Shown: positions 12,961 to 47,975 of the stretch, piece by piece | Layout of the letters: each line of letters starts with the position of its first letter | Position numbering within the stretch: position 1 is the stretch's first letter | Source: Azolla caroliniana | Lineage: Eukaryota > Plantae > Polypodiophyta | Reading direction: 5' to 3' | DNA: 64,000 nt | NCBI GenBank assembly: GCA_043228905.1 | Contig: JBHGNT010000013.1 | Span: forward strand, 9,734,001 to 9,798,000 | Notes under the pieces: model-generated | What the model was told of the DNA's origin: nothing | What the model saw: the letters and a program-made list of their open reading frames with translations, nothing else | The model's database searches: none | Translations under genes and position numbers: made by a program

Positions 12961-13273
12961 TATATGTTTAGACTTTAGGTCTAAGTGCACTTCGGGGTCC
13001 TCGTAATAGGACTTAAAGAGCCGAACCACATATGTGGGCATAGAAACATAGTTTATTGTTAACATTTTTTTCGTGTATAAACTATTCATGATGCGAACAT
13101 ACATGATTGAGCCCCCGGGAGCCACCATGAAAAAATCGATATAAGAGATCAGGGAAAGACATTCATTAGTCACCCCCATGGTTTTTAAAACACCTTTGTG
13201 TTACCATAGTAACCTGATCTTGAACCTCATCTTATACGTCTAGAGGGGTATTGACGTTGTCGCGGTAATCCAA

Positions 13274-16398: not shown

Positions 16399-16547
16399 CC
16401 ACGAGTACGTGTCAAAAGGGGCGGGACCACGGGGGTCTCGGACGAGGAAGAGAGGGATGTTGGGAAGCCGACTCTCTCTCTGGTCCCGGCTGCACCGGTT
16501 GTGGCGCAAACTAGAGCGATTCCGGACACGTACCAGAGGCTGCCGAA

Positions 16548-16550
<3 letters not shown>

Positions 16551-16619
<69 letters not shown>
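16551..16619. repeat. (GA)n microsatellite within the LTR of element C
   Basis: Long GA run. A shorter run plus a local duplication sits in the other LTR at 26400-26550. Confidence 0.95.
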
Positions 16620-16620
<1 letters not shown>

Positions 16621-18947
16621 ACGCGCAACACCGACTCAACACACGCCTCTTATGTACAGGAAACAAAAGGAAAGAAACAATCCGACACCAATAGAGACAC
16701 GAATATGCACAACCTTATATATATATAATCACAGGAGCAAGATACAACTCCGGCTCTGAGCCAGACTAAGGTAGGTTAGGTTACAACATCAATTTGTTGC
16801 CAAGCCACCGATCAGGGAGCTCTCGGGCTCATCGCGCCGAGCGGGGTCTTGCACGGGAGACTGAGAAGTAGCAAACCCCACAGGACATACAAGGTCTTCA
16901 CTAGACTAAACCCTAAACAGACACGAAGAAGAAGACCTCAAAGAAACTCTAAGTAAGAAAAAGAAGAACTAACACACCTTCTACCTAAGTGGTATACCCT
17001 CCTAACTCAAAATGGGCAACCCCTCTATAAGGGACCCTCCCTTCCTTTTATAGCATAAGGAGGGAGGTGCCTAACAATGTGGGATAAATCCCGTATTACA
17101 TCGGATTCTCTGTCCCAACTTAACTCCTATTCGGCACCATAAAGTCGCCCCTATTATTTGCATGTATACACAAGGGTGGGTGCCCACGCCGCACCCCGTC
17201 GATGTTCCCATTATTCCCGGTTTTCTCGCTAAGGTCGGGAATCTTCACAACATCCGCCCCCACCAAACTACACGTCCATCGGTACGTACCAAATCCGATG
17301 AAGGGTGAGAGATTCCGGCCGTAGCGAGCAACCGGTCCTTCGTAATCCACATCCCAGCTGTCGTGTTGGCCTCCGCGTGCGGGGAACACCTCCTGTCGGC
17401 CCGCTTGGCCCCTTCTATTCCGCACTGCTGCAATTGGTTTGACGCCATACACTTGTCGTCGCCCCTTCGCCCCCCCCACCAGCTTGTTACCTCGGGCTTG
17501 GCCTGCCACGCGAGTCGTTGCCCCTTTGACTGAGCCGTTGAGATCTCCGAAGCGGGTGTGGAGGATCCTCCTTCGCTCACTGATATCGTTTCCGGTTAAT
17601 GACCCGTGCAGCCTATCCCGCGCCCGGTTCCCGACCCGACACCATTGTGTGCCAACTTCCATCTTCCTTGCTCGGCACCGCTTGTGCCGAACACTGTCCC
17701 GTACCCATGCTTTACTTTTGCCCTCAATGGCCACACACACGTCTTCTGATCCGCTTTCGGGTGTGCCCTTTTCAGCTCGACACACCTCTCCCCACTTGGG
17801 TGTCCTTGGTAGCTTTTTGTGCTGCTACCCATGAAGGATCACCCTTGCCGATTTTGGCCCACCTAGCCTTCGTTGTTCTCGCAACGCCTTGGTTGCTCGG
17901 TGCCTCTATTGCTACGGCCTTCGTCCCCTCGCTGCCACCGTCAATATCTTGGTCTTACGTCGGCTCCCGGTGCCGACCGCCGAAGTCTCTAGATCCAGTG
18001 TGGAGGATCCTTCTCGGGCCTCCAATCTGTTAGGCAACCGACTCGTGTACAAAGCGTGTCCCATCTTCGTCCTTCTGACCCTGCCGACTGGGTCTGTATC
18101 CGGTTCATGGCCGCATCGCCGGCCTGATACCTCCTTCCGCTCCTTTTCAGCCCTTCTGCTAGATCCCGTTGTCACGCTGTTACGCGCGTGCGTGCAGAAA
18201 GAGGTGGGACCACAGGGGCCTTGAACCGAGGAGCGAGAGAGTGAGAAGAGAAGAGAAGAGAAGAGAGAGAGAAGAGAAGATAAGATAAGATAAGATAAGA
18301 GAAGTCCTGCAGATACGCAACAGGGAGAAGGAAAGAGAAACAAACGACACGCTTAATTACAATAACAGTAGATTACAATATTCAGAGAAGGCGGCGATGG
18401 ACCCGACACGGGGACCCTACTCACGCACACGGACAGAACACACTCGACTCAAAGAAACAAAAGGGGGAGAGCCTCTGCTGGAAGCACATGGGCTGTCCAC
18501 GAAGCAGAGGCAGCGAACTCCCGACACCCACAGAGACCGACGATCGGAGGAGAAGAGAGAGCTCGTCACCCAGTTCTGCAGCAGCACTTCGTCCTCGCCA
18601 ACGTGCGATACCTCTATCTCCCTTCTCTCCCTCAAATAGTTCGCAACCAGGGGGGGTGCGCCCTTTCTCCCTAGTAAAATCGCTTTATTCTCTGTCCTTT
18701 TTGACAGAGATACGCACAATCCCCCAATAAATGAATACTAATTGGTATTTACATCAGCCGATCCATATATGAATCATGTACAAAATATCAAAATGTCAAT
18801 TCACGCATCCATCCGTGTAAGAGCCGGTCCATGCGCCCTTTTCTCCGGTTCCGCCTATGGCCGGTTTTCTTCACGACATCCACCCCCACCAAACCGCGCA
18901 TCCACCGGCATGCGCCAGAGACGGGTAGATACCGAAGCAAACCAGCT

Positions 18948-21900
18948 TCACTCGTCGCTCTCTGATTCTCCGCCGGGTCCGAACCGATTGTCGTTGTCGC
19001 TCCCGCTCGCAGGCTCTGGCTCGTCTTCGAACCACTTCTTGAACGCTTTGATCCGCTTCCCGGAAACCGGCACTGCTAGCCGTGTCCCGTCGAGTTCCGC
19101 GAGGTGGTACGTGCCGTTGCCATTCGCACTCATCACCGTGTAGGGCCCGAACCACCTCATAGCAAACTTCTGCACCGCCTTGTGCTGATTGTCGAGGCTG
19201 CTGTCGTACACCAAGACCTAGTCGCCTTCCTCGATCTTCTTCGGTCGCAACCGGTGTGTCCGGTTGAACCGGGTCTTGTTCCGCTCCCTTGCGGCCCGCA
19301 ACTTTTCCTTCGCCCTTTTCACGTCCTCCGGCCTCCGCTTGAGTTGCCGAATCCGCGCCGCTAGCAACTCCTCCCGGCTCATCTCGTCCTTCCAATCCAC
19401 CACTGCCCATGAAGAAATCGTTCGTTCCACCGGCATGATCGGCTTCTATCCGTACATCAACTCTGTCGGCATAAACCCTGTCACCGAGCTGTGCGTAGTT
19501 CGGTCCGCCCATAGTGCGTAAGGAAGGAGCCGCGGCCAATTCCCGACCTGCCCTCCGCATGCACGCACCAACACCTTTACAATCGGCCCGTGCCCACGTT
19601 CTACCTTCCCGTTCGCCTCCGGATTGTACGCCGTAGTGAGGGAGAGTTTTACCCCTAGCCGGTCGAACAGCTCCTCAGCTTCCTGCGCATCCAGTTCTCC
19701 CCGGTCCGCCACGATCCTCCCGACGCATCCGTACCGACACACTACCTCTTCGATCAGGAACCGACATACCTCAGTGGTTGTCTTGTTCTACAGTGCACGG
19801 CCTTCCACCTGGTTCGTTAAGTCTTCTCGCGCAAGCACCAGTATCACATCTATCCTACTCCCATCGGCATCGTCACCAAGTCCACCATCCACTTGAAATG
19901 GACCGCAGGCGGGTAAGTCGGGTGTAGCTCATCCCGATGTAAGACTACAGAGTGTATCTGATAGCTCTCGCAAGTCGTTACGTACCGATGCACGTCCTGG
20001 TACATCCCCGGCCACCAGTACTTCTCCTTCAGCTTTTCGAACGTGGCCCATGTTCAGCGGTGCCCGGCCCAGGGACTCTCGTGAAATGCCGCCAGTAGTT
20101 CCTCCTGTTCTTCTTTCTTTGCCACTACTCGGAGCGGGATGCCGTTTCTCTTCTTCAGGTGCCTCCATATGCACTCGTCCCGCAGGAAGAGTGTATCTGA
20201 CAGCTCTCGCAAGTCGTTACGTACCGATGCACGTCCTGGTACAGCCTCGGCCACCAGTACTTCTCCTTCAACTTTTCGAACGTGGCCCATGTTCCGCGGT
20301 GCCCGGCCTAGGGACTCTCGTGAAATGCCGCCAGTAGTTCCTCCTGTTCTTCTTTCTTTGCCACTACTCGGAGCGGGATGCCGTTTCTCTTCTTTAGGTG
20401 CCTCCATATGCACTCGTCCCGCAGGAAGAATCGGTATGCCTTCTTCCGTACCCGGCTCGCCTCTTCTCTCGTCCATGCTCCGTCCGGCGTCATCATCCGT
20501 AGGAACCTCTCGATTTGGAGCCACTCCCCGTCGTACCTGCTTTCGTCAAATTCGTTAAGCGCCGGAGTGTCCCTTTCCCTCGTCGCTACGTTAGCCGACC
20601 TGAAGAAGTTCTCGCAGACTTGTTCGTCATCCGAAACCATGCCGTCTTCGTCGTTGAAAACCTCGCTCTCGAAAGCATGTCGGCCATGGCGTTATCCTTT
20701 CCGGAGATGTGTTGTACCTCTCGGTTTAGGGACTTAATGTACGCTATCCACCGGAGCATTGCTAGGTCCGGCATCGCGCATCCGGAAACCATGTCGAGTA
20801 TCGGTAGGCAATCCGTCTCGATGATCACCTCCGTCCCGATTAGATAGTCCTTGTCGGCCTTGACTGCCGAAACGATACCCCAAAGCTCGCGCTTAACTTG
20901 GGCGTATCCTCGTTGCCGCTCGCTCAATACCTTCGCCCCGAACCGGATCGGGAATCGAACGCCGCCCTTGTCCTCCTGACTGATTACCCACCCGATCCCG
21001 GTCGGGCTCGTATCCACCGTCACGCAAATGGGGACATCCTTGCCGTAAACTGCTTTACGGAGAGCCGGTGCTACCGTAAGCGCCTCCTTTAGTCTCTGTA
21101 CCGACTCTGTGTGCTCCGTCCTCCACTCAAAGCTACGCCCCTTTTTCAATAGTCCGTAGAGGGGTTCCGCGACATGTGCGTAGTGCAGGATCTAGATGTG
21201 GTAGAACGCGCACGCCCCTAAGAATCTGCGGACCTCCGTGACCGACCCGCAATCGTTCCTCATCGCGGAGATGGCCTCTACCTTTGCCGGAGACGGTTTC
21301 CTACCGTAAGGCCCGCACAGGTGTCCGACCACCAAGATCTCCGACTGCCCGAATGCCGATTTTTCTCCGGAGAAGGTCAGTCGTGCACCCTCGAGCTTTC
21401 GCAGCACCTTCTCGCAGTCGTTGATGTGGGTCACGACGAACCTCCGGCATCCGTCTGGCCCGACAGTCTCATCCGCATCTTCCACCGGACACCCCTTTAT
21501 CGGGATATCGTCCAAGAATGGCATGGTGATGTCCGGGATGCAGTCCCTTAGCACCTTGTTCATTGCGTTCACCATATGCGCCACCGAATTCGTCCCGCCT
21601 TGTGGTAGGGTACACATCCGTACTAGGCCGAGGGGGGTTCGCATCGTCGTGATATCCCTGCTCTCCACGGCTAGCTGGAACTGGTCGTACCCTGAGTATA
21701 AGTCACCGACCGAATAGATCGACCTTCCAGCGAAGGCCTCCGCGAACTCGTCTATGGTTGGTCTGATTCCTGCATTACGGATGGTCACCTTGTTGACCGG
21801 TTGCAGGTCCTGAATGAAGCGCAGCGTGCCGTTCTTCTTCGGCACCATAAACCACCGATTCGAATACGGGGCGCTCGACGGTTCGAGGATGCCCATCTCC

Positions 21901-24765
21901 ACATTTTGCTTTAGAAGCTCCATCAACTTCGGGATGTGAGCTCTCCGCACCAGAATCGGTTTGAGATTCCACGGTACATGCGGTACCGTGAAGATCACCA
22001 TCGGTTCGACGATCGTCGGGTCCACGCACCTGATTTCCTCTGGCGAGAACACGAAGGCTTTCCCATGCCCTCCGAGCATTCTCTGAAACCTGTCCTCCTC
22101 CACCGGCAGTAGGAAGCCACCCCCACCAACCTTGAGCTAATGTAGCGTTATGTTGGTGAACCGATGCCCTATGCCAGCCGGATTCCGTAAACTTGGGTCC
22201 GACGCGACCCCTTTTATCCGCTCCTCGCTGCCCTCCGGCAAGGGTGTCGCGATTGGCCTCACCTTATGGTCCATAGTCTTGTACTTTGTATCCATGCGGG
22301 CCGTCCGATCCGACCCGATCCTTTCCCCGAAGTCCGCGATGACTTCGTACATTCCCATTGAACTAAACAGAATGGTCCGGTTTTCTCTAAGGTCTTCACC
22401 GATCACCTTTCGCAATTCGCCCAAGGTGTCGTCAAAAGAGACCGCCTCTACGGCACCACTGATGTCTTCGTCAGGGGAGAGGACACTGCATCCCCTGAGC
22501 CGCTCCTCCGCTTGCTTCCTCTCCCGGTCGCTGACGCCGGTTATAGTATAACCTCCGTTTTCGGAGAACCAAAACTTTCTACCTACTGTACATGTGTGGG
22601 GTTCTTTCCGTACGTCCGGACTACCGCGGCCCCACGCCTTGATAACCCTCTCTAAAAATCCCCTCTGCCACCGCCGAGGGTCTCGCGATTCCTCTCATGG
22701 TTCGGACGTACGGTCATGAATTGGACGGAATGTCGACCATCCTGGCTGTTGACGCGCGCATACGCCAAACCGTTGTCCAGCATTTTCGTCTCCATGCGTG
22801 CTGCTGTAATGTATGGTTCGCCAAGAATCACCGGGTGCGAGGATGTTTCCTGCACGAAGAAATGTTGATCTATCTCGACGTCACCGACCTTTATGCGTAT
22901 ATTCGGGCACGCACCATGCAGCTCCTCCGTAGCATGCATCGTCGCGCATATTTTCCACCCGTGCTTAGTGTTGATCGGCCATTTACCCTTCTTGTAGAAA
23001 TCCATGGACATCAGGTTGATTTCGGATCCATGGTCTACCAAAGCCACCACCAGTTCCGGAACGTCGCCGATCCGCACAGGGGTTTCCGTAGTTGCCCTGG
23101 CCCAATGCGGCTTCGTGTAGTGGCTTTCCGCCAACTCGTCTTCTAGGGCCGCGTCTTCTAAGTGCGTAGTCCGCACCTCCACCGGCTTCTCTAGTTCTGG
23201 CTCCGTGGAGAGCCTCTTCCACTTCACCAAGTCTACGATGGAGTCGTGGAACTCCCTCTTGGCGATTCCCAGCACCTCCCGCAACGACAGCTCCACTTTA
23301 CTGTCGAGGATCCGCTCTTCAAGGACCTTCCGTAGGTCCGTTGCTCTCTCGATTTCGGTGCTCAACCGAAACCCCACCTGCTTCTTTCCGTCCGGCGCGC
23401 CTGGGTTGCCGGCACTGGTCGGTTTCGGTCTGAACCGGGTCTCATACCTCTGCGGGGAACCCACCCCGCCGGCCTTTCCTATCCGTTTGTCTTCCACCAG
23501 AACCTCGTAGTTCTGGCAAGCGGCTTATACGAAGCCCGTTTTCTCTTCGACCGGATCGTCCCATCCGGTGACCTCCTGGACCCGCTTTTCCGCGCGGTCC
23601 ACCTCTTCCTTCTTCAGCCGAACTCCGGAGAAGCCTTCTAGCACTAGCGGCCAGAATCCGGAGTCCTTCACCTTCCGGGACTCGTCACCCCCGACCCGAA
23701 TTCCCGCCGATACTGAGTAGTTAATGGCTTCAATGTGCCGTGCCGCGGCCTCTTCCATCAACCTCTTCATTCCGTCGCGCCCCGTATTTAGGTCTAGGGC
23801 TCTTCGGGTCTCACTCGCGTGCACCCGCCCGTTCTAGAGGTACACCACGTTGATCCAGAGTGCGTCGGCGAAATCTGCGCAATCCTTCCGAATGTGACCA
23901 ATCGCGTCATACCACATGCACTGTTGCCCAGCTGGCGGCCTCCGGTCGCGAGGTTGTTCACCGCTGTCTCTCCGGGCCTGTGCGATCTACAGGTCGCGCA
24001 CCATTTGTGTCAGCTCCTCCAGAGCCGCTCCTCCGGATGGGCCTCTAACTACTCCATTCGATGCAGACCCCGACTCCAGCCAAATTCGGGTCTCTTCTTT
24101 CCTACCGGCTGGCACTGATACCGGCTCCTCGATCCTCCCCGTCGGGACCGGCCCTGACTCCAATCACGTCGTTTGTCAAAACGGCTGCAGACCCGTTTTA
24201 CCACGACCCAGTCTGCCGTGAACCCTTCGTCCGTTTCCAATAGGGGACCCACCTTTTCCCAGTCGAGCGCGTCCACCGACTTGACAAACAACAGTACTCG
24301 ACTCGTTTCGAGCATCGTCCGGTCCAACATCAACAACCGCGCGAACCTTTTTTCGAACTCCTGGAGGAGCACCGACGTGTTCCTCCCTTTTCCGGGGCTT
24401 TCCACCCACGCCATGAAGTCCCGCCTCGACAGCCGAAGCGAGTCGTCAAACCCGTACTTCTCGAGGAGCTGCAACTCGAACTCCTCCCAAGTCCGGCATC
24501 CGGCCAACACCTCGAGCACCTCCGCATGGATGTTCAGCGTCACCACCCGAGGGAATCCGGACAGCCGCTTGTCCACCGGGATATCCCTCATGATCATTTC
24601 GGCCCGGTAAGCCTCCAAATAACTTGTGGCGTCTTTCCCTCTGAACCGGCCTATAGTGCCGACGATCGATTCAATGGCTCTGTCGAGGGTACCCGTCCCC
24701 TCACGAGCGCTTACCAGCCGGTTGACAACTACCACCATTGCCTCTACTAGCTTTGATCCCCTCAT
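18948..24765 (-). pseudogene. gag-pro-pol polyprotein of element E, with stops and frameshifts
   Basis: Capsid (ORF 24049-24792). Degenerate zinc knuckle CMWYDAIGHIRKDC at ~23880-23920. Protease LVDHGSEINLM. RT YSVGDLYSGYDQF and PFLDDIPIKG. RNaseH VTVDTSPTGIG...ELWGIV...IETDC. Integrase HESPWAGH, IVADRGE, AYNPEANGKVERGH and WFGPY. Confidence 0.92.
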
Positions 24766-24788
24766 TTTTCGACTCCTTTGCCGCCCTT

Positions 24789-24805
24789 TCACGTCGGGTT
24801 CACCA
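24789..24805 (-). promoter_or_regulatory. Primer-binding site, tRNA-Trp (also at 13985-14001 +, 26215-26231 -, 35594-35610 -, 49956-49972 -)
   Basis: TGGTGAACCCGACGTGA is complementary to the 3' 17 nt of plant cytosolic tRNA-Trp(CCA), as recalled (...TTCACGTCGGGTTCA-CCA). It lies 4-6 nt from the LTR end. Confidence 0.85.
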
Positions 24806-26396
24806 AATATGTCGCGTTGTTACGCGTGTGCGTGCAGAAAGAGGCGGGACCACAGGCTCCATGAACCGAGGAGCGAGAGAGTGAGAAGAGAAGAGAAGAG
24901 AAGTCCTGCAGATACACAACAGGGAGAAGGAAAGAGAAACAAATGGCACGCTTAATTACAGTAACAATAGATTACAATATTCAAAGATTGCCAACTCCGA
25001 CGATTACAATCGGCAAGGCGGCGATGGACCCGACACGGGGACCCTACTCACACACACAGACAGAACACACTCGACTCAAAGAAACAAAAGGGGGAGAGCC
25101 TCTGCTGGAAGCACACGGGTTGTCCACGAAGCAGAGGCAGCGAACTCCTGACACCCACAGAGACCGACGATCGGAGGAGAAGAGAGAGCTCGTCACCCAG
25201 TTTTGCAGCAACACTTTGTCCTCGCCAATGCGCGATACCTCTATCTCCCTTCTCTCCCTCCTTAAATAGTTCGCAACCAGGGGGGGTGCCCCCTTTCTCC
25301 CTAGTAAAATCGCTTTATTCTCTGTCCTTTTTGACAGAGATACGCATAATCCCCCAATAAATGAATACTACTTAGTATTTACATCAGCCGATCCATTTAT
25401 GAATCATGTACAAAATATCAAAATGTCAATTCACGTGTCCATCCGTGTAAGAGCCGGTCCATGCGCCCTTTTCTCCGGTTCCGCCTATGGCCGGTTTTCT
25501 TCACGACACCGTTCACCTGCCGCCACCGTCCATCTCTCTAGGTCTGACACCGACTCTCGGGCCGACTGCCGGAGTCTCCGGATCGATGTGAGGATCGTCA
25601 TAGGACCGCCCCATCACTGCCTTTGCCCTCGTCCCCTCACCGCCACCGTCAATCTCTTGGTCTTACATCGGCTATGCTGCTGACTGCCGAAGTCTCTAGA
25701 TCCAGTGTGAAGGATCCTCCTGGGGCCTCTCGTCTTTCCGACCCTATCCCAGGTCTTCCTTCTCCGCATGTCGAGAGTGTGGCTTGCTCCGCACCCTCTC
25801 TCGTGGTACCAATGTACCGTGTTCCAGCCTCTCTGTAGGTCTGCCCCCCTCCCCTTTCTAGATAGGTTATCCGGAAGTCCGCTCTCCCGGTTCTCATCCG
25901 AGCTTGTCCGATCTCTCTCTGCATTACCTGGCGCCGTTCTCTTGCCGCCACCGTCAGTATCTTGGTCTTACGTCGAATCCGATGCTGACCGTCGAAGTCT
26001 CTAGCCCGGTGTGAGGTGACCCATAGGACCAGTCTTCGTTCCTCCTCTTTCCGGATCGGTTATTCGGAAATCCACTCCACCCGGTTCTCGGCCGGGTCCG
26101 CCCGTCACTCTGTATTGTCGGGTCCCGTTCTCCTGCCGCCACCATTAGTATCTTGGTCTTACGTCGGATCCAATGCCGACCGTTGAAGTCTCTAGCCCGT
26201 TCCCTTGCCGCCCTTCACGTCGAGTTCACCAAAGATGTCGCGGTAATCCGCGAGTACGTGTCGAAAGGGGCGGGACGACGGGAGTCTCGGACGAGGAAGA
26301 GAGGGATGCCAGGAAGCCGACTCTCTCTCGGGTCCTGGTTGCACCGGTTGTGGCGCAAACCGGAGCGATTCCAGACATGTACCAAAGGCTGCCGAA

Positions 26397-26437
<41 letters not shown>

Positions 26438-27241
26438 ACATGCGCAACATCGACTCAACACACGCCTCTTATGTACAGGAAATAGAGAGAGAGAGAGAGA
26501 GAGCTCGCGCGCAACACCGACTCAACACACGCCTCTTATGTACAGGAAACAAAAGAAAAGAAACGCATCCGACACCAATAGAGACACGAATATGCACAAC
26601 CTTATATATATATATAATCACAGGAGCAAGATACAACTCTGGCTCCGAGCCGGACAAAGGTAGGTTAAGTTACAACAACAGTTTGTTGCCAAGCCGCCGA
26701 TCGGGGAGCTCTCGGGCTCGTCGCGCCGAGCGGGGTCTTGCATAGGAGACCGAGCAGAAGCAAACCCCACAGGACATACAAGCCCTTCACTAGACTAAAC
26801 CCTAAACAAACACGAAGAAGAAGACCTCAAAGAAACTCTAAGTAAGAAAAAGAAGAACTAACACACCTTCGACCTAAGTGGTATACCCTCCTAACTCAAA
26901 ATGGGCAACCCCTTTACAAGGGACCCTCCATTCCTTTTATAGAATAAGGAGGGAGGTGCCTAACAATGTGGGATAAATCTCGCATTACATTGGATTCTTT
27001 GTCCCAACTTAACTCCTATTCGGTGCCATAAAGTCGCCCTTATTATTTGCACGTATACACAAGGGTGGGTGCCCACGTTGCACCCCGCCGATGTTCCCAT
27101 TATTCCCGGTTTTCTCGCTAAGGCCAGGAATCTTCACGACAACGTGAGATCATGATATCGATTAATGTTGGCCCATGATATGTTTACATCACGACTATTT
27201 GTCTGACCTTATCCTATTTCTTTGCCAGAAATTATCATTCA

Positions 27242-30420: not shown

Positions 30421-30637
30421 TCTTTCTCTCCCGCGTACAGTCTTTGTGTGATTAAGCTTTCCATTAAACTTGTGTATATTCTCTGTTGCTATACGATGAA
30501 GCCGGTTTCATCGACAAGCTTCTGCACACTACTTTTTACATGGTATCAGAGCGCGAGGGTTGAGAAACTCTATTGTCAACAAGCGATTTCCATAGACAAA
30601 CCGTAACTTCCGGAAAAGCACAAACCGAAAAGAACGG

Positions 30638-33600
30638 TGTCGCGTTATTACGCGCGTGCGTGGAGAAGGGCGGAACCACGGGGGTCTTGGACTAAGGAGA
30701 AGGGGAGAAGGAATAGGACTTCGGAATGGAGCTTAGCACAAGAAGAGAAAGAATGAACAAGAGGAAGATGGAGGCCAAATGCTCAACAAGATATATTAGA
30801 ACTGAAAACCGATTACAAAATGGCGGCCGCGTAGGCCGCACCGAACGACTATGATAAACCCCGAAACCCTAATCCGACGAAGAAGAAAAGAAACCCTAAC
30901 TAAGGAACCCTAAACGAAACCCTAACCCTAAAACGAAATGGTATACCTCACTCACACTCAAAAATAAGGCAACCCCCACAATGGTGTTCTTCCTCTCCTT
31001 TTATAGCACAAGGAGAGAAGACCGTTTCCAAAAGGGTGCTACAAAATATCCCCTTTTCAATCAATGGGGATATTTCCCTTGATTTTAGGGGAGGTGGGAA
31101 GGATGGGTCTTAACTCCCACCTCTACACGAACTACCACGTACCTATCTCTCTCTCTCACGTGGATGTGCGCGCAAAAGCACATCACCTTTACCCTTTACA
31201 AATCCTAAGGTGCATTTCTAGCACCTTACTTATCACTATCGATAAATAGAAATACAACATGTTGATGTGCAACGTTGCACATCGCGGGTTTGCTTGCTTC
31301 GCTCGGTTTTCCGCCTATGGACGAAAATCTTCACGACATCCGCCCCCACCTAACCGCACATCCACCGGTATGTGCCAAAAGGGGAACAAAATGCGAGATT
31401 TTCGGCCAAGGCGGCCAACCGAGCCCTTGACAACCTCGTGGGCTTGCCCGGCTTCGTCTTCCACCCCGTCCACACGAACCACCGTCGCCTTCCGGCCCAC
31501 CACCTTCGTCGAATGGTCTCGAACCGTCGGCCCCATCCGATCCGCCACACTCGACGACGCTCGCCGAGTCGTTGCCTCCACTTGATCCGCCACGTCCACC
31601 GTGTTTCCTCGAACCACCGACTACACTCGGACCGCCATATCCGATGCCCGCGCTTTCCTCCCCGTTCGGTCCTCCCGAACGCCGTTGCCGACCCTTTGTC
31701 CGCCTCGCATATCCTCCGGATCCGCCTTTTGCGCACCTCGTCGTGCCGACTCTTCTCGCTCCGCGCTCGCCTTCCGTAGGCTTTCCCCGTACGTCGGTGT
31801 CGTCCTCCGAATGTGTGCTCGTGCTTCGGTCCTTCGATGACCCCATCACGCATTTTTCGCCTTCCCTTTGCTTGTCGTGCTCTCTCGCCGTAGAGCATAC
31901 CATCGTTCCCGTGCTCGTTGCTTGGCCCTCATGCGGCCGTAATGCACGTTTCGCATTCCGCTCCTCTTCGCGTACCCTTTCGGAAAGGTACCCCTCTTCC
32001 CCGACCTCCGTTTCGCTCGGAGGAACACCCTCTTGGCCCTCTTGGCCCGCTTGACCGCACACATCCTTCGTGATGTCGTGTTCGTTCTTTTGGGCGCATA
32101 CATCTTCGTTCTCCGCGACCTCCCGTATGCCTCTCTCGGTGCCTTCATCCGTTGTGGCCTTCGTCCCCTCGCCGCCACCGTCCGCCACTCTTGATCTCAC
32201 ATCGGCACTCGCGCCGACCGCCGGAGTCTCTATAGCCGGTGTGGAGGATCCCTCTCGGGCCTTATCTTCGTGGCCGCCGGTCTTAGCCTCTCCGTAGGCC
32301 ACCTCTTCCCACCAATCTTCCCTAGCATCGTGCCAGGTCTCGTCGTCGCCGCCTTCCTCCTCGTATTCGCCTCTCGAAGGCGTGATCCGACCGTCATCTT
32401 CGGTCGCTCGATGTGGCTCCTTCGTAGGCATGCTTGTGTCTTGGCCCTCCATCGGCCGTATTGCATGCATCTCGTCTCGCTCTTCCGCCGTAGACTCGAC
32501 CTCCGTGTCGGTCTTCTCCTCCTTTGTCGCCGTAGCCCGTTCCGACATGGGCTCGCCGTCTTGGACCCACCCGTCCACGATCTCGTACCGGATATCCGTT
32601 CCGGTAACCTCGTACGCTCCGGTCTCCGACTCCTCGCCGCCACTCGCCGTTTCTCCGGTCTTATGTTGATCCGCAACCGCCGTAGTCTCTAGAGTGGGTA
32701 TGGAGGGTCTCGTTTGTTTCCGTTTTTCCCCCGAACCATGGTCGTCGTGCCCGGTTAGCCTCCATCTCGCGCTTACCGGCTCCCATCGTAACCGTAACCG
32801 TAACCGGCCAATCGGTCTCGCCGGCTTCCTTCGGTTTGGGCCCGGTTCGCCGGCCCTTACTCTCTTCTTCTTCCGTGCCGTATTCCGGTCGGGTCGGTTC
32901 CCGACTCTCTCCTCGTTTCCGCTCCGGTCCTCTCCGTCGGACCCACCGTATACGCCCATTCCGGGCCCCGCATACTCGTCTTCGTATGCGCTCTCTCCGG
33001 GCCTCACCTCCTCACGGTCATCGCCCACCTCTTCGGTCTCACGTTGGCATTCGAGCACAACCGCCGAAGTCTCCGGCCCCGGTGTCAAGGGGTCTTGCCT
33101 CCGTCCGCTCCAATCTTCCTTCTCGTTTCCGTTGCCCGCCTTGCCGCCGTCACCTCCCGTCGCACTAAGCCTCATGCCGGCACTCGGGCCGGCCATTGGA
33201 GCCTCTAGGATTGGTGTGGGTAAGGACCCGGCACCGCCGCTTGTTGTCTCCGTAGCCGCTTTTGTTCGGACGTCGTTGTCCGCGGCTCCCCCATCTCCGA
33301 TTCCGTAAGCCTCTAGTATGCTTGCCACCACCTCTTCTTCGCCGTTCTCCGCGTCATTTTGTTTGCCCGCCTTGCCGCCGCCACCGCCCGTCGTTCTAGG
33401 TCTCGTGCCGGCACTCGGGCCGACCGCCGAAGCCTCTAGGATTGGTGTGGGTAAGGACCCGGCACCGCCGCTCGCCTCCTCTCCACTCGATGTTTTGGGC
33501 CGCCGTGCCCCGAATCTTCCGCCCACTTTCGAAGTGGCGCTCTCCGCTTTGTAGTCACCGGCCTCATCCTTGGCCGTCCATTCGCCGCAAGACGAGAGGG

Positions 33601-36315
33601 TTGCTCGCTCCGCACCCTCTCCCATGCCGTCGTCGTTTCGGTTGCCCGCCTTGCCGCCGCCACCGTCCGTCACTCTAGGCCTCTCGCCGGCTCTCGGGCC
33701 GGGTGCCGGAGTCTCTAGGACCGGTGTGTGGAAGGTCGCGACACCACCACTCCTCTCGTCCGTAGCCACCTCCATTCGAACATCGTCGTCCGTGGCTACC
33801 CCGTCTTCGGTTTCGCAAGCATCGAGTATGCTTGCCGCCGCCTCTTCTTCGCCGGACTCGTCCTTATCTCGGTTGTCCGCCTTGCCGCCGCCACCGTCCG
33901 TAGCTCTAGGTCTCGTGCCGGCACTCGGGCCGACCGCCGAAGCCTCTAAGGCCGGTGTGTGGAAGGTCGCGACACCGACACTCGTCTCCTCTTCCTCCTC
34001 CATTTCGCAAGCCTCGAGTATGCTCGCGAAATCCTCGTAGAACGTTTCGGGCAACCGCGTCCCGAAACTTCCGCCCACTCTCGAAGTGGCGTCCATCGCT
34101 CCGTAGATATCGGCCTCGTCCATGGCCGTTCTTTTTCCCCGAGATGAGACGGTCGCTTGCCCCGCACCTTCTCTCGTGTCGACACCGTGGTCGCCCGCCT
34201 TGCCACCGCCACCGCCTTTCACCATAGGTCTTACGCGGGCACTCGGGCCGGCCGCCGTGATCTCTAGGAATGACGCGTGTAAGGTCGCGTGACCGCCGCT
34301 CGTCGATGTAATGTCCGTAGCCACCTCCGCTCGAACGTCGTTGTCCGTGGCTACCCCGCCTCCGTATATGCAAGCATCGGTTATGCTTGCCGCCGCCTCT
34401 TCCGCGGTCTCCTTACCGTTGTCTCGGTTGCCCGCCTTGCCGCCGCCACCGTTCTTTTCCCTCGGTCTCACGCGGGCGCTCGGGCCGGCCGCCGGGGTCT
34501 CTTGAACCGGTGCGTGGAAGGTTGCGGTACCGCCGCTTGTCTCCTCCGTACTCGATGATTCGGGCCGCCATGTCCCGAATCCGCCATGTCCACTCGAATC
34601 GGCGATCGCCGCCTCACCGTCCCCGACCTCGTCCTCGGTCGTTCTTTCCCCCCATGTCGAGAGGGCGGCTCGCTCCGCACCCTCTCCCGTGGTACCGATG
34701 CACCATTCTCTTTCGGCCTCCGCATAGGCCCCGTCCTCCATGTGTGAGGAAGCTCCTTCCTCCGATCCGCTCGGGCCCGACCCCGCAATAAGCCATTCTT
34801 CGGCTTCGATTTTCGCCATTACGAGCCCGCACGCCTCCCGTATTAGCGCTTGTAGGTCGAGCCCCTCCAAACCGGTTCGCGATGAGCTCTCGTCCGGCGG
34901 CATGGCGTAGTCGGTCGTCGCTCTCTCTTCTCCCCCGCTCGCGGGCCGTGTTGTGGCCGACCGCCTCGCCTCGTGTTGCCGACACACCCATTCCACTTCG
35001 GGCCACTCCTCGGTGAGACCATGCGCCCCATAATCGTCTTGAAGCTCGAACATGATGTCCATCCTCTCCTCATGATGGACCGTCTCCAAAAATAGGAGGA
35101 CTTTGTCCGCCCCCACCGATCTTCGTTCCCACTCCGAGAGTTGAGAGAAACGACGCTCGAACTCTCGGAATGCCTCTATTGCGCTCCGATGGCGCCTCGC
35201 CGACGCCATCCACCGATCGAACTCTCGCCGACCTCTTACCTCCGATTCCGCGCACCCGTATGCCTCCATTAGAGCCCTTTCAAAGGACTCCCACGATTCG
35301 TGAGCTTCTTGGAGCTCCTTGACCTCCTCGTACTTTGATGCGGCCGCCGCTCGACGAAAGAACTCTAGCCTCGTCGCTTCGTCCACGCCCATCCCCGTCA
35401 TTTCCGCATCGTAGGCTCTCAAAAATTTTGGGACCTCCTTCCCATCGAACCGGCCGACTAGACGGACCACCCTTTCGACCGCTTGTTGAGCCGCCTCTCG
35501 CCTCGCCCTCTTCCGTCCGGCGTCCATCAAGATCTTTGTCATCATCTCCTCGAAGTCGAAGCCTTCCTCCATCTCTTTCTCCCTTGCCGCCCTTCACGTC
35601 GGGTTCACCAAAGATGTCGCGTTATTACGCGCGTGCGTGGAGAAGGGCGGAACCACGGGGGTCTTGGACTAAGGAGAAGGGGAGAAGGAATAGGACTTCG
35701 GAATGGAGCTTAGCACAAGAAGAGAAAGAATGAACAAGAGGAAGATGGAGGCCAAATGCTCAACAAGATATATTAGAACTGAAAACCGATTACAAAATGG
35801 CGGCCGCGTAGGCCGCACCGAACGACTATGATAAACCCCGAAACCCTAATCCGACGAAGAAGAAAAGAAACCCTAACTAAGGAACCCTAAACGAAACCCT
35901 AACCCTAAAACGAAATGGTATACCTCACTCACACTCAAAAATAAGGCAACCCCCACAATGGTGTTCTTCCTCTCCTTTTATAGCACAAGGAGAGAAGACC
36001 GTTTCCAAAAGGGTGCTACAAAATATCCCCTTTTCAATCAATGGGGATATTTCCCTTGATTTTAGGGGAGGTGGGAAGGATGGGTCTTAACTCCCACCTC
36101 TACACGAACTACCACGTACCTATCTCTCTCTCTCACGTGGATGTGCGCGCAAAAGCACATCACCTTTACACTTTACAAATCCTAAGGTGCATTTCTAGCA
36201 CCTTACTTATCACTATCGATAAATAGAAATACAACATGTTGATGTGCAACGTTGCACATCGCGGGTTTGCTTGCTTCGCTCGGTTTTCCGCCTATGGACG
36301 AAAATCTTCACGACA
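30638..36315 (-). mobile_element. Element B: very young pol-less (gag-only) Trp-primed LTR element
   Basis: 701-bp LTRs at 30638-31338 and 35615-36315 with one difference seen by eye (31193 c versus 36170 a). TSD ACGG (30634-30637 and 36316-36319). Perfect Trp PBS at 35594-35610. Confidence 0.95.
31331..35572 (-). CDS. 1413-aa Gag-capsid-like protein with a long Gly/Ala/Thr/Glu-rich repeat tail; no PR, RT, RH or INT
   Basis: The N-terminal ~200 aa align by eye with the gag of E (VGRFDGKEVPKFLRAYDAEM / IGRFRGKDATSYLEAYRAEM; EFERRFSQL / EFEKRFARL; KVLLFLETV / RVLLFVKSV). At least six copies of GGxATFHTPxLExxAxGPSAxxRPRxTDGGGGKAG follow. The stop is the TGA inside the LTR start TGTCGTGA. Confidence 0.85.
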   Translation of the reverse strand: MEEGFDFEEMMTKILMDAGRKRARREAAQQAVERVVRLVGRFDGKEVPKFLRAYDAEMTGMGVDEATRLEFFRRAAAASKYEEVKELQEAHESWESFERALMEAYGCAESEVRGRREFDRWMASARRHRSAIEAFREFERRFSQLSEWERRSVGADKVLLFLETVHHEERMDIMFELQDDYGAHGLTEEWPEVEWVCRQHEARRSATTRPASGGEERATTDYAMPPDESSSRTGLEGLDLQALIREACGLVMAKIEAEEWLIAGSGPSGSEEGASSHMEDGAYAEAEREWCIGTTGEGAERAALSTWGERTTEDEVGDGEAAIADSSGHGGFGTWRPESSSTEETSGGTATFHAPVQETPAAGPSARVRPREKNGGGGKAGNRDNGKETAEEAAASITDACIYGGGVATDNDVRAEVATDITSTSGGHATLHASFLEITAAGPSARVRPMVKGGGGGKAGDHGVDTREGAGQATVSSRGKRTAMDEADIYGAMDATSRVGGSFGTRLPETFYEDFASILEACEMEEEEETSVGVATFHTPALEASAVGPSAGTRPRATDGGGGKADNRDKDESGEEEAAASILDACETEDGVATDDDVRMEVATDERSGGVATFHTPVLETPAPGPRAGERPRVTDGGGGKAGNRNDDGMGEGAERATLSSCGEWTAKDEAGDYKAESATSKVGGRFGARRPKTSSGEEASGGAGSLPTPILEASAVGPSAGTRPRTTGGGGGKAGKQNDAENGEEEVVASILEAYGIGDGGAADNDVRTKAATETTSGGAGSLPTPILEAPMAGPSAGMRLSATGGDGGKAGNGNEKEDWSGRRQDPLTPGPETSAVVLECQRETEEVGDDREEVRPGESAYEDEYAGPGMGVYGGSDGEDRSGNEERVGNRPDRNTARKKKRVRAGEPGPNRRKPARPIGRLRLRLRWEPVSARWRLTGHDDHGSGEKRKQTRPSIPTLETTAVADQHKTGETASGGEESETGAYEVTGTDIRYEIVDGWVQDGEPMSERATATKEEKTDTEVESTAEERDEMHAIRPMEGQDTSMPTKEPHRATEDDGRITPSRGEYEEEGGDDETWHDAREDWWEEVAYGEAKTGGHEDKAREGSSTPAIETPAVGASADVRSRVADGGGEGTKATTDEGTERGIREVAENEDVCAQKNEHDITKDVCGQAGQEGQEGVPPSETEVGEEGYLSERVREEERNAKRALRPHEGQATSTGTMVCSTAREHDKQREGEKCVMGSSKDRSTSTHSEDDTDVRGKPTEGERGARRVGTTRCAKGGSGGYARRTKGRQRRSGGPNGEESAGIGYGGPSVVGGSRKHGGRGGSSGGNDSASVVECGGSDGADGSRPFDEGGGPEGDGGSCGRGGRRSRASPRGCQGLGWPPWPKISHFVPLLAHTGGCAVRWGRMS

Positions 36316-36329
36316 ACGGGTTGAAGAAA

Positions 36330-39300
36330 ATGGACAGAGGGATGGCAAGCTAATTCCCGATGGAGAAACTCGACAGGAATAACTACACATCTTGGTCTTA
36401 CAAGATGCACCATTGTCTGCCTGGACACAGATATTGGAGCTATGTTGAGGGAGCGAATGAAGTAGTGTTGGATCCGGCACACAAGGACTTCCCGGCATGG
36501 GAACAACGAGCGAGCAGAGTGTTGTACTATCTTGTGTCATGTGTGCACGACCAGATGCTCGACTACATCAAGGAAAATTTGAAGAAGATTTTCGCGGCAA
36601 GCACAACAGCTCGAAAGTTGCAGCTCCGACAAGAGCTCAACACTATCCAACAGCGGGACATGTCGGTTACCAACTACACCACCAAAATAAAGGAGATTTG
36701 TGATGCGTTGGGGTCCATCAACATGATGGTGGATGAAGACGAAATGGTCCAGATCTACCTCGGTGGTCTAACACAATTGTATGGGCCAATCCGGATGACA
36801 ATTTGCACTCGGGAGAAACTGTCGTCCTTCTTTGACTTACAATCGATGCTGATGGTTGAAGAAAACCACGCAAGTGGGTTGAGAACCACTCAATTGGATA
36901 ACCACATGTTGTACATGGAGGCGGATTGGCCCCGTGGGTGTGGTGAACGATGTGGGTCGGCACGCAATAACAGCGGCCGACAAGAGTAGAATCAGAGGCA
37001 CTGAGATAGTGCCAACAGTAGTTTCGGACCTTCCACAAGTAGGGGGAGTTAAAGTGGCGCTGGAAATCAACAATTGAAAGCCGATACATAATGTTGGTAT
37101 TGTGGCAACAAAGGCCACTGAGAAAGCAAGTGTTGGAAGAAGTGCACCGATTCCGATAAATCTGGATCCGGTAAGGCCGGACGGGGTATTGGCAGAGATC
37201 GCACTATGTAGAAGGATCCGGAACTGGAAAGTCCAAAAAATGGCCAACCTTTGTGATGAAACACAAGGCGAACTCATTGAAGAAGACCACTTCCGGATCG
37301 GAGGACGTGTGGTATGTTAATTCCGGAGCATCCAACCATATGACGAGCCACGAAGAGTGGTTCTCATATCTAGAAAACCGAAACAATCAGGAGTTGTCGA
37401 AACCGGAGACGACACTCCTCACCCGATAGTGCATGTCGGACAAGTTCCCTTGAGTCATGTTCAACAAACGAAGCTTATGAACGTGCTTCACATCCCGACA
37501 ATCACAAAGAGCCTGGTGTTGGTCAGATAGATCGTCAACCAGGGGATGCAGGTGTGGTTTATGCACCTCGGGTGCTTCAACGAGGAAGAAGGCCAGATAA
37601 TCATGCAAGGGCGCCAGGACGGGAGGGTGTTCATCCTCAACACTAATGATGTTGGCACCACTTCGAACAAAAGAATAGAAGCTCGAGTCGGATATCGACT
37701 TGTGGCATAAGCGAGTTGACCATGTCAACTACCAGTGACTTCAAGATCTGCAATCGAAATAGGTTGTTTTCAGATTGCCGAAATTTAATGGTCGGAAGGC
37801 ACAATTTTGTGAAGCTTGCTCACTCAGGAAGCAACACCAGCTTCTGTTTCCCACCGAAAGAAACCGGAGCCGTAACAAGCTCGACTTGATACATTCAGAT
37901 GTATGGGGACCGACGCAGAACGTTAGTCTCGGTGGGAGCCGATATTTCGTCTCCTTCATCGACGACTATGTGCATAGCCTATGTGCAGGTATTCGGTAGC
38001 ATAGCCTATGTGCACGTACCAGATGAGAAGCGGAGAAAGTTGGACCCGAAGTCGGAGAAATGCATAGTAGTAGTCGGCTACTCTCACGAGCAGAAGGGGT
38101 ATAAGTGTTACAACCCATGGATAAAGACAGTTCGAGTGAGTTGAGATGTTGAATTTGATGAGTCGGCATCCTGGTACTCTCTACCGACTCCAACCCTATT
38201 CCAGAAGATGAGGATAGTGAGCCCGGATCGATCTGGGCTGAAGATGAAGAAGGATTCGACACTCTAAATGAAAGTCTAATCTCATTTTGGCTGAGAGGGC
38301 CGAAGGAGCGACTCAGTCGGAACGACCAGTCAGATGAAGAGTAGGCGAGTAGTGGACACTCAGTCGTGTTGTCCCCGTGCAAGGAACCGAGGTGACGGTT
38401 CACGCGCAAAGAGAAGGGGAAGAAGAAGATGTCAGAATACGAGACCAGAAGAGATGAGTCGGATTGCAATGAATCCGACTCCGGATAGAACGAAGATGGA
38501 CCTTCAGAGACAAAGTTCGAGTAAGACAAGAGGGCTCTTAAATCGGCTAAGGAGAAGTTACGTTGTTTGACCCGCCAAAAGAACCCCGTAAAACGGTATG
38601 AGTATAATGAGTACATGGTGCATCACTATGCTTACATGACGAAAGTGGTGGAAGTGTGAGCCAGAGAGCTACGCAGAAGCGGCCAAGGACACACATTGGC
38701 GTGCCACTATGGAGGAAGAGATGTGGGTACTCGATGCCAACAACACCAGGGAACGGGTTGACCCTCGTCAACATTGCAACCCGATCAGTTGCAAGTGGGT
38801 GTACAAGGTAGAGTACAATGTCGATGGTTCAGTCAACTAGTACAAGACCCAGTTAGTGGCTAAAGGATATGCATAAACCCACGGAATCGACTACGACCAG
38901 ACCTTAGCTCTGGTAGCGAAGATGACGACAGTTCGTGTGGAACTAGCAGTTGTTGCGACAAGGGGTGCATCTTCACCAGATGGATGTGAAGAATGTGTTT
39001 CTTCAAGGCGATCTTGAAGAACAAGTCTACATGATCCAACCCCCCAGGTTTTAGTTGGAGGTGAACAAGTCGGTAGTATGCCGACTCAAGAAGTCACTTT
39101 ACGGCCTAAAGCAAGCCCCTCGTGCTTGGAATTCGAAGATAACGCACCAGTTGTGTAAGATGGGGTTTACTTCCTCGAAGTCGAACTCTTCATTGTCCAT
39201 CCAGAGAGGTCTGGAAGGTTTGATATGTATCCTGCAATATGTGGACGATCTAGTCATTACCGAACCTTGACTTGTTGAAATTGATTGAGTGAAGTCCCAG

Positions 39301-46295: not shown

Positions 46296-46686
46296 ATGTA
46301 ATAATCTTTTCTTCTATTTATAAATTTGTCTCTTCATCCGGTGAGAGACTCTCACTGACCTTCTTTATCCGGCTCTTGCCAGTTCTGCTTGATCCGGTTC
46401 TTACCGGGTCTCCTTACTGGGTCCTCCTTGTCGGTTCCTCCTTCATCCAGTTCTCATCGGTTCTCCTTACCGGTGTCGCGAAAATACGACGAGGATACGT
46501 GAACTTGAGGCGGGACACCGGGGCCTCCGACTAGAGGATATCACATTCGTGCGTTTATATTTTTTAACAATTAATGGAAAGAAGAAATTTAATAATTTTT
46601 TCATTAGCAAAGGAAAAGAAATTACAATAAGTCCCAAGATTGGGATTCAGAAGTTTAGGTTTTTACTAAGTTTAATAGAAAAGAAA

Positions 46687-46900
46687 AATTAGGGGTTTTT
46701 GAGAGATATGGCTTCCATAGGGAAAATTAGGGTTTTTAGTGTTATGGCTTCCGTAGGGAAAATTAGGGTTTTTGAGTGTTATGGCTTCCGTAGGGAAAAT
46801 TAGGGTTTTTGAGTGATATGGCTTCCGTAGGGAAAATTAGGGCTTTTTAATGTTATGGCTTCCGTAGGGAAAATAGGGTTTATGAGAGTTATGGCTTCCA
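46687..46900. repeat. ~37-bp tandem array in the LTR of F (second copy ~50187-50402)
   Basis: About six copies of ttagggtttttgagtgttatggcttccgtagggaaaa. Confidence 0.9.
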
Positions 46901-47975
46901 TAAGATAAGGGAGCTGAGAAGGACAAGAAAAATAATATGGAGAGAGGATGAGTGTAGGAAAAAAATGGAATTTTATATGGAGTTCTCCGTTGATCATAGC
47001 CTTCAATGTTACTTTGCATGCCCACTTTTAGTTGTATGGCCTCTACTTTTAGTTGCATGCCTTTTTCTTTTAGTTGCATGCGACCGTCCACATGACCTTT
47101 ACTTTAGTTTTCTTTACTTTACTTTAATTTGCCGCATGATCCAATCATTCGTCCGTCTTGATTGTTGCCCATCCAATCCGTCCGGTCCGCCGAATCTTGG
47201 TTTTCGGCTCCATTTGATTGCCGGTTTCACCGGTTCTGGTTTGCTTACCGACCGGTTTTGGTTTGCTTACCAATCGGTTCCAATTTGGTTTCCGGCTTAC
47301 CGGCCGGTTCCGGTTTGCTTTCCGACCGGTTCCGGTTTGCTTACCGGCCAATTCTGGTTGCTTAACGATCGATTCCAATTTGGTTTTCGGCTTACCGACC
47401 AGTTCCGATTTGCTTTCCGACCGGTTTCAATTTGCTTACCGATCGATTCCAATTTGGTTTTCGGCTTACCAGCCGGTTTCAAATTGATTTCCAACCAGTT
47501 CCGGTTTGCTTTCCGACCGGTTCCAATTTCCTTACCGGCCGGTTTCGATTTGCTTACCAACCGGTTCCATTTTATTGTCAGTCGGTTTTTGGGAACTTTG
47601 CCACATTCATCTGTCTAGACAAAGTGGCCAAAGTGCTCTTAGCACAAATGAAAAATAAGGGATCTCAATGTGCTTATATAGCCAGAGCCTTAAGTTTCCT
47701 ATCTATATGGGATAAATCATAGTTCTATTTTCCCTATCTTCTCAAACTTCATGTTCTCATAATTTGATATGTAATTGTCCATTTTGTATCTAGTAAAATG
47801 CGTTTTGAAGCTCTTGAGTACATCCTTCTTCCTATAACAAGCTACTAATCTAATCTAAAATAATTATTTCATTATTTTTTTACATAGTGTGTGAAGATTC
47901 ACACGACATTCGCCCCCACCAAACCTGCACATCCACTTGTATGTGCCAATTTTGGTGAGGCTCCACTTTTGTTTA

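What the first reader, a model, noticed from the sequence alone, without database searches (positions are those of the whole stretch)
30638..36315. Young pol-less element whose entire interior is one 1413-aa capsid plus repeat-tail ORF
Seen: near-identical LTRs and an intact TSD. The ORF starts 22 nt past the PBS and stops at the TGA within the first 8 nt of the 3' LTR. About 200 aa are capsid homologous to the gag of E. No zinc knuckle or pol domain is visible. The other ~1200 aa are acidic and Gly-rich, with a repeated GGxATFHTPxLExxAxGPSAxxRPRxTDGGGGKAG unit. Knowledge: gag-only TR-GAG elements exist in plants, but I do not know one with such a tail. Inference: a recently mobile satellite element that supplies its own modified Gag (co-assembly, dominant-negative restriction or condensate scaffold) and borrows Pol from E-type helpers. 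Caveat: the last ~180 aa may be out of the ancestral frame, because the overlapping ORF 31350-31898 looks more like the D and F C-termini.
Basis: partly seen in the sequence, partly recalled or inferred. Interest (0 to 1): 0.8.

Follow-up and report, generated by a model that had tools for sequence, protein, structure and literature searches.

The report
Retrotransposon keeps a filler reading frame
A young family of plant jumping genes that lacks its copying enzymes keeps a 4-kb reading frame free of stop codons while its amino acids drift freely, so the frame is likely kept to shield the element's own RNA from decay rather than to make a needed protein.

Summary
The anatomy is confirmed: 701-bp LTRs with one mismatch, a 4-bp TSD, a tRNA-Trp PBS, and one 1413-codon ORF with a capsid fold and no zinc knuckle or pol. 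The element is one of at least 64 young pol-less copies. It has Phygy-type ends (NCGN target site) shared with an intact autonomous family, but it is not a deletion of that family. Selection keeps the frame open, not the sequence. Nonsense changes number 5 against 23 expected (none shared, 7 expected), while pN/pS is 1.00 (helper capsid 0.21). Shared frameshifts occur only near the 3' end, each into a frame open to the LTR edge, so the C-terminus comes in three frames. Copies lacking capsid parts still spread. Likely mechanism: translation to the 3' LTR protects the RNA in cis (long-3'-UTR NMD), as open frames favour defective interfering viral RNAs. Against: a sister family spread with a stop 2 kb early, capsids show moderate constraint between families, and no RNA test was possible. 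The scan's earlier notes held nothing like it.

The parts
35615..36315 (-). 5' LTR, 701 bp, TGT...ACA
35593..35610 (-). primer-binding site, complement of tRNA-Trp 3' end, 4 nt from the LTR
31331..35572 (-). single ORF, 1413 codons, stop inside the first 8 nt of the 3' LTR
34949..35572 (-). residues 1-208: long N-terminal helix plus capsid N-lobe (33-108) and C-lobe (111-208)
   Evidence: tblastn to gag of E
33118..34541 (-). six in-frame Gly/Ala/Thr/Pro-rich repeat units (spacing 231, 279, 231, 318, 237 nt)
31733..34948 (-). acidic, Gly-rich low-complexity tail, residues 209-1280; frame kept open, sequence unconstrained within the family
31331..31732 (-). last about 133 codons, read here in a minority frame; the commonest frame (overlapping ORF 31350-31898) gives an Arg/Trp-rich end
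31339..31352 (-). polypurine tract, shared with the autonomous family
30638..31338 (-). 3' LTR, 701 bp, one substitution against the 5' LTR
30634..30637 (.). target-site duplication, left copy (CCGT on the element strand, NCGN type)
36316..36319 (.). target-site duplication, right copy
18170..25508 (-). element E: broken member of the autonomous gag-pol family that is the likely helper

Best explanation
This is a young, pol-less LTR retrotransposon family with Phygy-type ends that likely borrows its enzymes from the autonomous E-type family, and whose PBS-to-LTR reading frame is likely kept because translating the RNA almost to its 3' end protects it from decay, not because the 1200-residue tail is needed. 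Shown: the anatomy, the family, the shared cis-signals, the loss of nonsense and frameshift variants from copies that went on replicating, and the near-neutral amino-acid change. Inferred: that the selection acts in cis on the RNA. A copy whose ribosomes stop early would carry a 3' UTR of 1-4 kb, the trigger of plant nonsense-mediated decay, and would supply less RNA for packaging by helper particles. Untested: transcription, translation, NMD dependence, and packaging by the E-type family. The capsid at the front is a relaxed relic that may keep a minor role.
For: (1) Against the window copy, 63 copies, codons 1-1145: 590 missense, 273 silent, ratio 1.00 (0.87-1.16); nonsense 5 vs 23.0 expected (P 7e-6); shared nonsense 0 vs 7.0 (P 0.0009). 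The five other frames show no significant depletion. In copies picked by DNA only, outside the query: 2 vs 11.5 (P 0.0008). The few stops equal what post-insertion mutation gives (about 4.7, my arithmetic). (2) The same method gives 0.21 for the helper capsid and 0.17 for pol (11 copies against L108). (3) 49 of 64 ORFs end within 30 nt of the 3' LTR edge, in three frames; the 15 early ends lie at 15 different places. (4) Only 9% of positions allow a shift that stays open. All shared net shifts lie in the last 0.8 kb and stay open. In the zone where only one direction stays open, 7 of 7 events take it (my count). The one shared shift further upstream is carried by two copies that lack a stop present in 58 of 64. 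(5) 19 of 55 open C-termini lack the Trp-rich motif, and net charge of the last 130 residues ranges from +1 to +33. (6) In-frame deletions that shorten protein and RNA together spread, while stops giving like lengths do not (codons 816-1145: 2 vs 7.9). (7) L138 and L139 share a 44-codon capsid deletion at separate sites, and a sister family lacking the N-lobe has 64 of 150 rows at 92-99%. [quoted passage not shown] A premature stop in RSV gag lowered packaging (PMC5035971, passage).
Against: A sister pol-less family stops at codon 488 and leaves about 2 kb untranslated, yet it amplified (24 of 150 rows are exactly 488), so an open frame to the LTR is not required across the clan. The helper's own gag stop leaves about 3.5 kb downstream for ribosomes that do not shift frame. 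Capsids are constrained between pol-less families (pairwise 0.24-0.73), in the 488 family (0.41) and in the C-lobe kept by the N-lobe-less family (0.40). The C-lobe of this family is 0.61 (0.36-1.05). Shared changes in the first tail part of the N-lobe-less family give 0.44 (P 0.002 against private changes), so some tail residues mattered there. A Trp-rich C-terminal motif recurs in distant families. The 7-of-7 count is small and includes a recombined segment.
Confidence: 0.55

Rival explanations
1. The protein acts in cis: its capsid (chiefly the C-lobe) docks on helper Gag while a disordered tail with a basic end holds the RNA that encoded it, giving preferential packaging. A disordered tail tolerates missense change but not truncation.
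For: The capsid fold is intact. The C-lobe survives every capsid deletion seen and is constrained in sister families (0.40-0.44). Most copies end in an Arg-rich frame (36 of 55 keep the Trp motif). Cis packaging is described for HIV-2 (PMC5035971, passage). Gag-only Bik-1 has a capsid and a Gly-rich end but no pol (PMC12067270, passages).
Against: Several separate lineages replaced the last 130-270 residues by another frame of far lower charge and still transposed. The capsid is much less constrained than the helper's (82/42 vs 30/61, P 2e-6). One family of the clan has a long acidic ORF with no capsid detected.
Confidence: 0.27
2. The protein works in trans, as a shared capsid, a restriction factor against E-type elements, a condensate scaffold or a host-used protein.
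For: The ORF is long and intact in most copies. A Ty1 capsid C-lobe restriction factor is among the fold matches (9rxy, Z 6.9), and gag-only elements serve the host in zebrafish.
Against: A product shared among more than 60 copies would not purge stops copy by copy, yet stops never spread. Amino-acid change is near neutral. The helper family is itself young and abundant.
Confidence: 0.08
3. No ongoing selection: the family came from a few recently active copies that happened to have an open, GC-rich, stop-poor frame.
For: The copies are very young (29 of 63 LTR pairs without a substitution), pN/pS is about 1, and the tail is rich in GNN codons that rarely mutate to stops.
Against: Expected stop counts already allow for codon make-up and methylation context, and the control frames meet them. 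263 shared substitutions include no stop. 34 of 39 LTR indels are not triplets, while no shared net shift lies in the first 1145 codons.
Confidence: 0.05

Closest known systems
TR-GAG elements (Chaparro et al. 2015, PMC4350172; abstract, methods part and passages read)
   Same: LTRs, PBS, PPT, TSD, one ORF with a Gag domain, no pol, several young copies.
   Different: 5.7 kb rather than under 4 kb; 4-bp rather than 5-bp TSD; 1413 codons against 433 for TR-GAG1, which also has a zinc finger; no Pfam Gag hit; most of the ORF is low-complexity sequence.
Phygy clade of non-chromovirus Ty3/gypsy (Neumann et al. 2019, PMC6317226; passages and one supplementary table row)
   Same: 4-bp NCGN TSD (54 of 54 matching TSDs) and tRNA-Trp PBS, in satellite and helper.
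   Different: Phygy was defined on autonomous Physcomitrella elements by polyprotein trees; this element has no pol, and the helper's RT was not placed.
Defective interfering RNAs that need an open frame (murine coronavirus; clover yellow mosaic virus)
   Same: Helper-dependent RNA in which nonsense and frameshift changes lower fitness although the product need not work. Seen as a passage and reference titles in PMC8255065 and a reference title in PMC9786237; the original papers were not read.
   Different: Those are deletion products of RNA viruses. This is an old, integrated retrotransposon lineage whose frame is filled with non-helper repeats, and its behaviour is read from copies, not from experiments.
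Zebrafish BHIKHARI and chicken ENS-1/ERNI gag-only elements (PMC12067270, passages)
   Same: Young non-autonomous LTR elements with one ORF: N-terminal helix, capsid, Gly-rich or disordered end.
   Different: Their Gag (617 aa for Bik-1) has shown host functions; here the tail is about 1200 residues, unconstrained and frame-variable at its end.
Ty1/copia short GAG RNA (PMC5580714, passage)
   Same: NMD of long 3' UTRs is proposed there as a force shaping plant LTR-element RNAs.
   Different: Copia avoids it by early polyadenylation of a subgenomic RNA; a genomic RNA must reach the 3' LTR, so this element would extend the frame instead.

Membership tests
TR-GAG | two LTRs, PBS, PPT and TSD | tested here: met
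TR-GAG | single ORF with a Gag domain | tested here: met
   capsid by fold and by homology to helper gag; no Pfam hit
TR-GAG | no pol domains | tested here: met
   no tblastn hit of helper pol on 92 of 92 interiors
TR-GAG | two or more copies | tested here: met
   64 copies analysed
TR-GAG | length under about 4 kb | tested here: not met
   5678 bp; the paper's own scan kept 1-6 kb
TR-GAG | 5-bp TSD | tested here: not met
   0 of 64 with 5 bp, 54 of 64 with 4 bp
Phygy | 4-bp TSD of type NCGN | tested here: met
   54 of 54 matching TSDs; definition
Phygy | tRNA-Trp PBS | tested here: met
Phygy | placement of RT/RH/INT in the Phygy clade | not tested
   the element has no pol; no Phygy reference set was fetched to place the helper
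Phygy | polyprotein fills nearly the whole interior (helper) | tested here: met
   gag 708 aa plus pol about 1170 codons in 5.7 kb; total 7.3 kb, slightly under the 7.7-10.0 kb listed
Defective interfering RNA needing an open frame | derived from the helper by deletion | tested here: not met
   DNA matches only at LTR ends, PBS, PPT and 59 nt of gag; capsid about 35% identical; separate clade
Defective interfering RNA needing an open frame | open frame needed in cis, encoded sequence not | tested here: inconclusive
   population signature fits; no experiment; 488-codon family is an exception
Defective interfering RNA needing an open frame | interferes with the helper | not testable with these tools
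   needs experiment
TRIM/LARD (definition recalled) | no coding capacity | tested here: not met
   maintained 1413-codon ORF

The most novel reading that the evidence does not exclude
A retrotransposon satellite that has grown kilobases of stop-poor, in-frame filler so that ribosomes run to its 3' LTR and hide its RNA from nonsense-mediated decay. It would be an LTR-element counterpart of the open-frame rule of defective viral RNAs, used by a clan of Phygy-type satellites with differing fillers.
Probability: 0.45. Interest if true: 0.82.

Novelty: new variant of a known kind. Interest (0 to 1): 0.66.

Why it matters
Long intact ORFs in transposons are usually read as proof of a needed protein. 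Here 64 natural copies separate the two pressures: the frame is kept and the sequence is not. If NMD is the cause, RNA surveillance is a force that makes selfish RNAs build and keep long reading frames with no protein function. That bears on how non-autonomous elements survive and on where long, disordered, translated ORFs (raw material for new genes) come from. The clan offers built-in contrasts: open to the end, stopped at 488, lacking the N-lobe, or lacking a detectable capsid.

Tried and rejected
Pfam found nothing on the ORF. Foldseek gave only weak capsid hits (best E 0.32). The ESM Atlas gave no usable look-alike for the repeats. A charge-hydropathy disorder test also called the capsid disordered, so it was not used.

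Expression: no RNA holder was listed on record. Contigs of three runs guessed to be RNA cover 29, 28 and 27 of 30 bins of the element, but only 10, 23 and 7 of 30 bins of a 9.9-kb helper locus with flanks; a fourth run covers both fully. The runs were found with this element and their type is a guess, so this is not used as evidence.

One-off deletion of the E family was rejected. A hidden pol or second gene was not found in the interiors. Apparent shared frameshifts at codons 510-527 and 1010-1140 are offset pairs or recombined segments whose copies stay open. Stop counts in the 488-codon family were discarded because copies were picked for that length. One of the five counted stops (L123) is not a stop in that copy. 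No complex prediction was run, since capsid pairs tend to pass by likeness to solved structures.

Dropped rows: of 71 family loci fetched, 5 had no LTR pair, 2 were duplicates and 1 was mis-parsed, leaving 63 plus the window copy.

Literature: searches showed no report of an LTR element with this signature in the listings, abstracts and passages seen. Subscription papers and bioRxiv supplements were not searchable, so an annotation of this family in a genome paper's supplement cannot be excluded. Scan notes: none by sequence or words; 8 of 56 genome notes shown concerned other elements.

Full report
Observation. The element lies at 30638-36315 on the minus strand, with 701-bp LTRs differing by one base and a 4-bp duplication CCGT. 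The PBS matches tRNA-Trp genes of this genome. One ORF of 1413 codons runs from 42 nt inside the interior to nt 8 of the 3' LTR; the other two frames hold 37 and 24 stops. Pfam finds nothing, but residues 30-218 match the gag of element E. A model from a 78-sequence alignment (pLDDT 92.8) matches Arc, Copia and PEG10 capsids (dArc1 Z 10.1 over 158 residues; Arc N-lobe Z 9.0, rmsd 1.9). No zinc knuckle is present. The element sits in the leader of a copia element, between its iMet PBS (30541) and gag (36354). The host is a plant; an earlier unchecked note calls it a fern, and named distant capsid relatives come from a fern and a liverwort.

Family. Two searches of the 523-Mb genome (lower bounds) gave 71 further loci. 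After dropping 5 without an LTR pair, 2 duplicates and 1 mis-parsed locus, 63 were analysed with the window copy. 29 of 63 LTR pairs have no substitution. 54 of 64 have a matching 4-bp TSD, all 54 of type NCGN. NCGN with a Trp PBS is the signature of Phygy (PMC6317226, passages and one supplement row). None of 92 pol-less interiors, from this and sister families, matches helper pol or post-capsid gag.

Helper. E belongs to a large family: 133 of 133 scored RT matches are at least 91% identical, many in open frames of about 1170 codons. Of 15 fetched, 12 had paired LTRs, with the same PBS, PPT and, in most, an NCGN site, a 708-residue gag with zinc knuckle and a pol in an overlapping frame. With the satellite it shares DNA only at LTR ends, PBS, PPT and 59 nt of gag, and about 35% capsid identity. 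In a capsid tree the 13 rows of the satellite clan (10 pol-less copies from this genome and 3 database proteins) form one clade (100/100) on a long stem, sister to the helper gag. That the E family supplies Pol is inferred from these shared signals.

Selection on frame, not sequence. With context-specific mutation rates, codons 1-1145 show 590 missense and 273 silent differences (ratio 1.00, 0.87-1.16) but 5 nonsense against 23 expected, and none shared between copies against 7 expected; the five control frames behave as expected. The deficit holds where no search could have favoured open frames (2 vs 11.5 and 2 vs 13.6). LTR divergence predicts about 177 post-insertion changes there, hence about 4.7 stops (my arithmetic), so the stops seen need be no more than decay after insertion. 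The helper, by the same method, gives 0.21 in the capsid and 0.17 in pol. The satellite capsid gives 0.83 (0.56-1.23), N-lobe 1.42 and C-lobe 0.61, both with wide limits.

The end of the frame. 49 of 64 ORFs end within 30 nt of the LTR edge, at -11 (24, one trimmed to -10), -23 (1), +8 (16) or +24 (8); the 15 early ends all differ. In the LTR 34 of 39 indels are not triplets. In the ORF a shift stays open at only 9% of positions, yet all shared net shifts lie in the last 0.8 kb and stay open. Between -529 and -297 only one direction is open, and 7 of 7 events take it (my count; LTR indels split about evenly, 18 and 16, my count; P about 0.01). The one shared shift in the other direction upstream of -297 is in L043 and L123, two of only six copies lacking the blocking stop. 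The resulting C-termini differ wholly: 19 of 55 lack the Trp-rich motif, and charge runs from +1 to +33 (6 copies lacked the anchor). The window copy is such a variant, shared with L046.

The capsid is dispensable in part. L138 and L139 share a 44-codon deletion at separate target sites and L141 lacks 91 codons. An older sister family lacks the N-lobe in 64 of 150 rows at 92-99% identity; among 10 copies it also has no shared stop (0 vs 4.6 expected over three regions). Another family, present in the window at 13258-16398, has an Asp/Glu-rich ORF of 525-606 codons ending about 100-160 nt before the LTR with no capsid detected.

Mechanism. A product shared in trans cannot purge stops copy by copy, so the pressure is in cis (inference). 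Deletions that shorten protein and RNA together spread, while stops giving like lengths do not, and any frame will do at the end. The conserved property is therefore where ribosomes stop. [quoted passage not shown] A premature stop lowered RSV RNA packaging (PMC5035971, passage), and NMD has been proposed to shape copia RNAs (PMC5580714, passage). A potyvirid with one ORF and a short 3' UTR escaped NMD (PMC5031192, passage). An LTR genomic RNA must reach the 3' LTR, so a frame ending at its edge gives the shortest possible UTR. About half of the tail codons are GNN (52% Gly, Glu, Asp, Ala, Val), which reach a stop only by transversion; the acidic, Gly-rich make-up may be a by-product of this (inference). 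Other translation-linked protection, such as from stall-linked silencing, is not excluded.

Against this reading. A sister family stops at codon 488 with about 2 kb left and still amplified. The helper's gag stop is also far from the end. Capsids are constrained between families (0.24-0.73) and in sister families (0.37-0.44). Part of the tail is constrained in the N-lobe-less family (shared 0.44) and between it and the window copy (0.53), though 5 of 6 repeat-to-repeat comparisons give 0.92-1.15. A cis-acting capsid-tail protein thus remains the main rival (0.27). Nothing here shows transcription or translation.

Comparison and verdict. It works like a TR-GAG satellite of a Phygy-type helper but fails the TR-GAG size and TSD marks (PMC4350172). 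[quoted passage not shown] Ten literature searches showed no such case for an LTR element within the open library. Verdict: real, a new variant of a known kind, mechanism 0.55, interest 0.66.

Noticed in passing
window 13258-16398 (+); L177-L179: Pol-less Trp-PBS element with a 525-aa Asp/Glu-rich ORF and no detected capsid; 87 matches in the genome; relatives' ORFs end 97-164 nt before the 3' LTR.
   Followed up: partly
L163-L176 (e.g. G000:C1:19704890-19711890): Sister pol-less family with a constrained capsid and a fixed stop at codon 488 (TGA or TAA), followed by about 2 kb of decayed tail-like sequence.
   Followed up: partly
L143-L162: Older family whose capsid lacks the N-lobe in frame and keeps a constrained C-lobe, reminiscent of truncated Ty1 Gag restriction factors (recalled; 9rxy).
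   Followed up: partly
window 46474-51154 (-): Another pol-less element with 1.2-kb LTRs, a decayed PBS, a capsid C-lobe match (40% over 237 aa) and a Glu/Lys-rich tail broken by a stop.
   Followed up: no
window 16385-27141: Pol-less element of the same clan into which the autonomous-type element E (18170-25508) has inserted; a nest of clan members spans about 10190-27141.
   Followed up: no
window 30541-36989: The element interrupts a copia element between its iMet PBS and its gag.
   Followed up: no
G000:C8:17796786-17823371; C5:10105608-10112201; C16:4989495-5105657: Clusters of a tRNA-Trp 3'-end motif, in C8 at about 1.2-kb spacing; 61 matches in all.
   Followed up: no
L053/L054, L034: Head-to-tail copies that appear to share an LTR: the 3' LTR runs straight into the interior start.
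   Followed up: no
L108:gag-pol junction: Helper pol lies in the -1 frame, overlapping the gag stop at a run of T, a likely ribosomal frameshift site.
   Followed up: no
window 30860-30930 and 35835-35910: Telomere-like CCCTAA repeats inside the LTR, the main site of LTR length variation among copies.
   Followed up: no
family interior, sense strand: G-to-A exceeds C-to-T outside CG sites (50 vs 31 and 29 vs 16 per 10,000 covered sites), a strand bias that may reflect reverse transcription.
   Followed up: no
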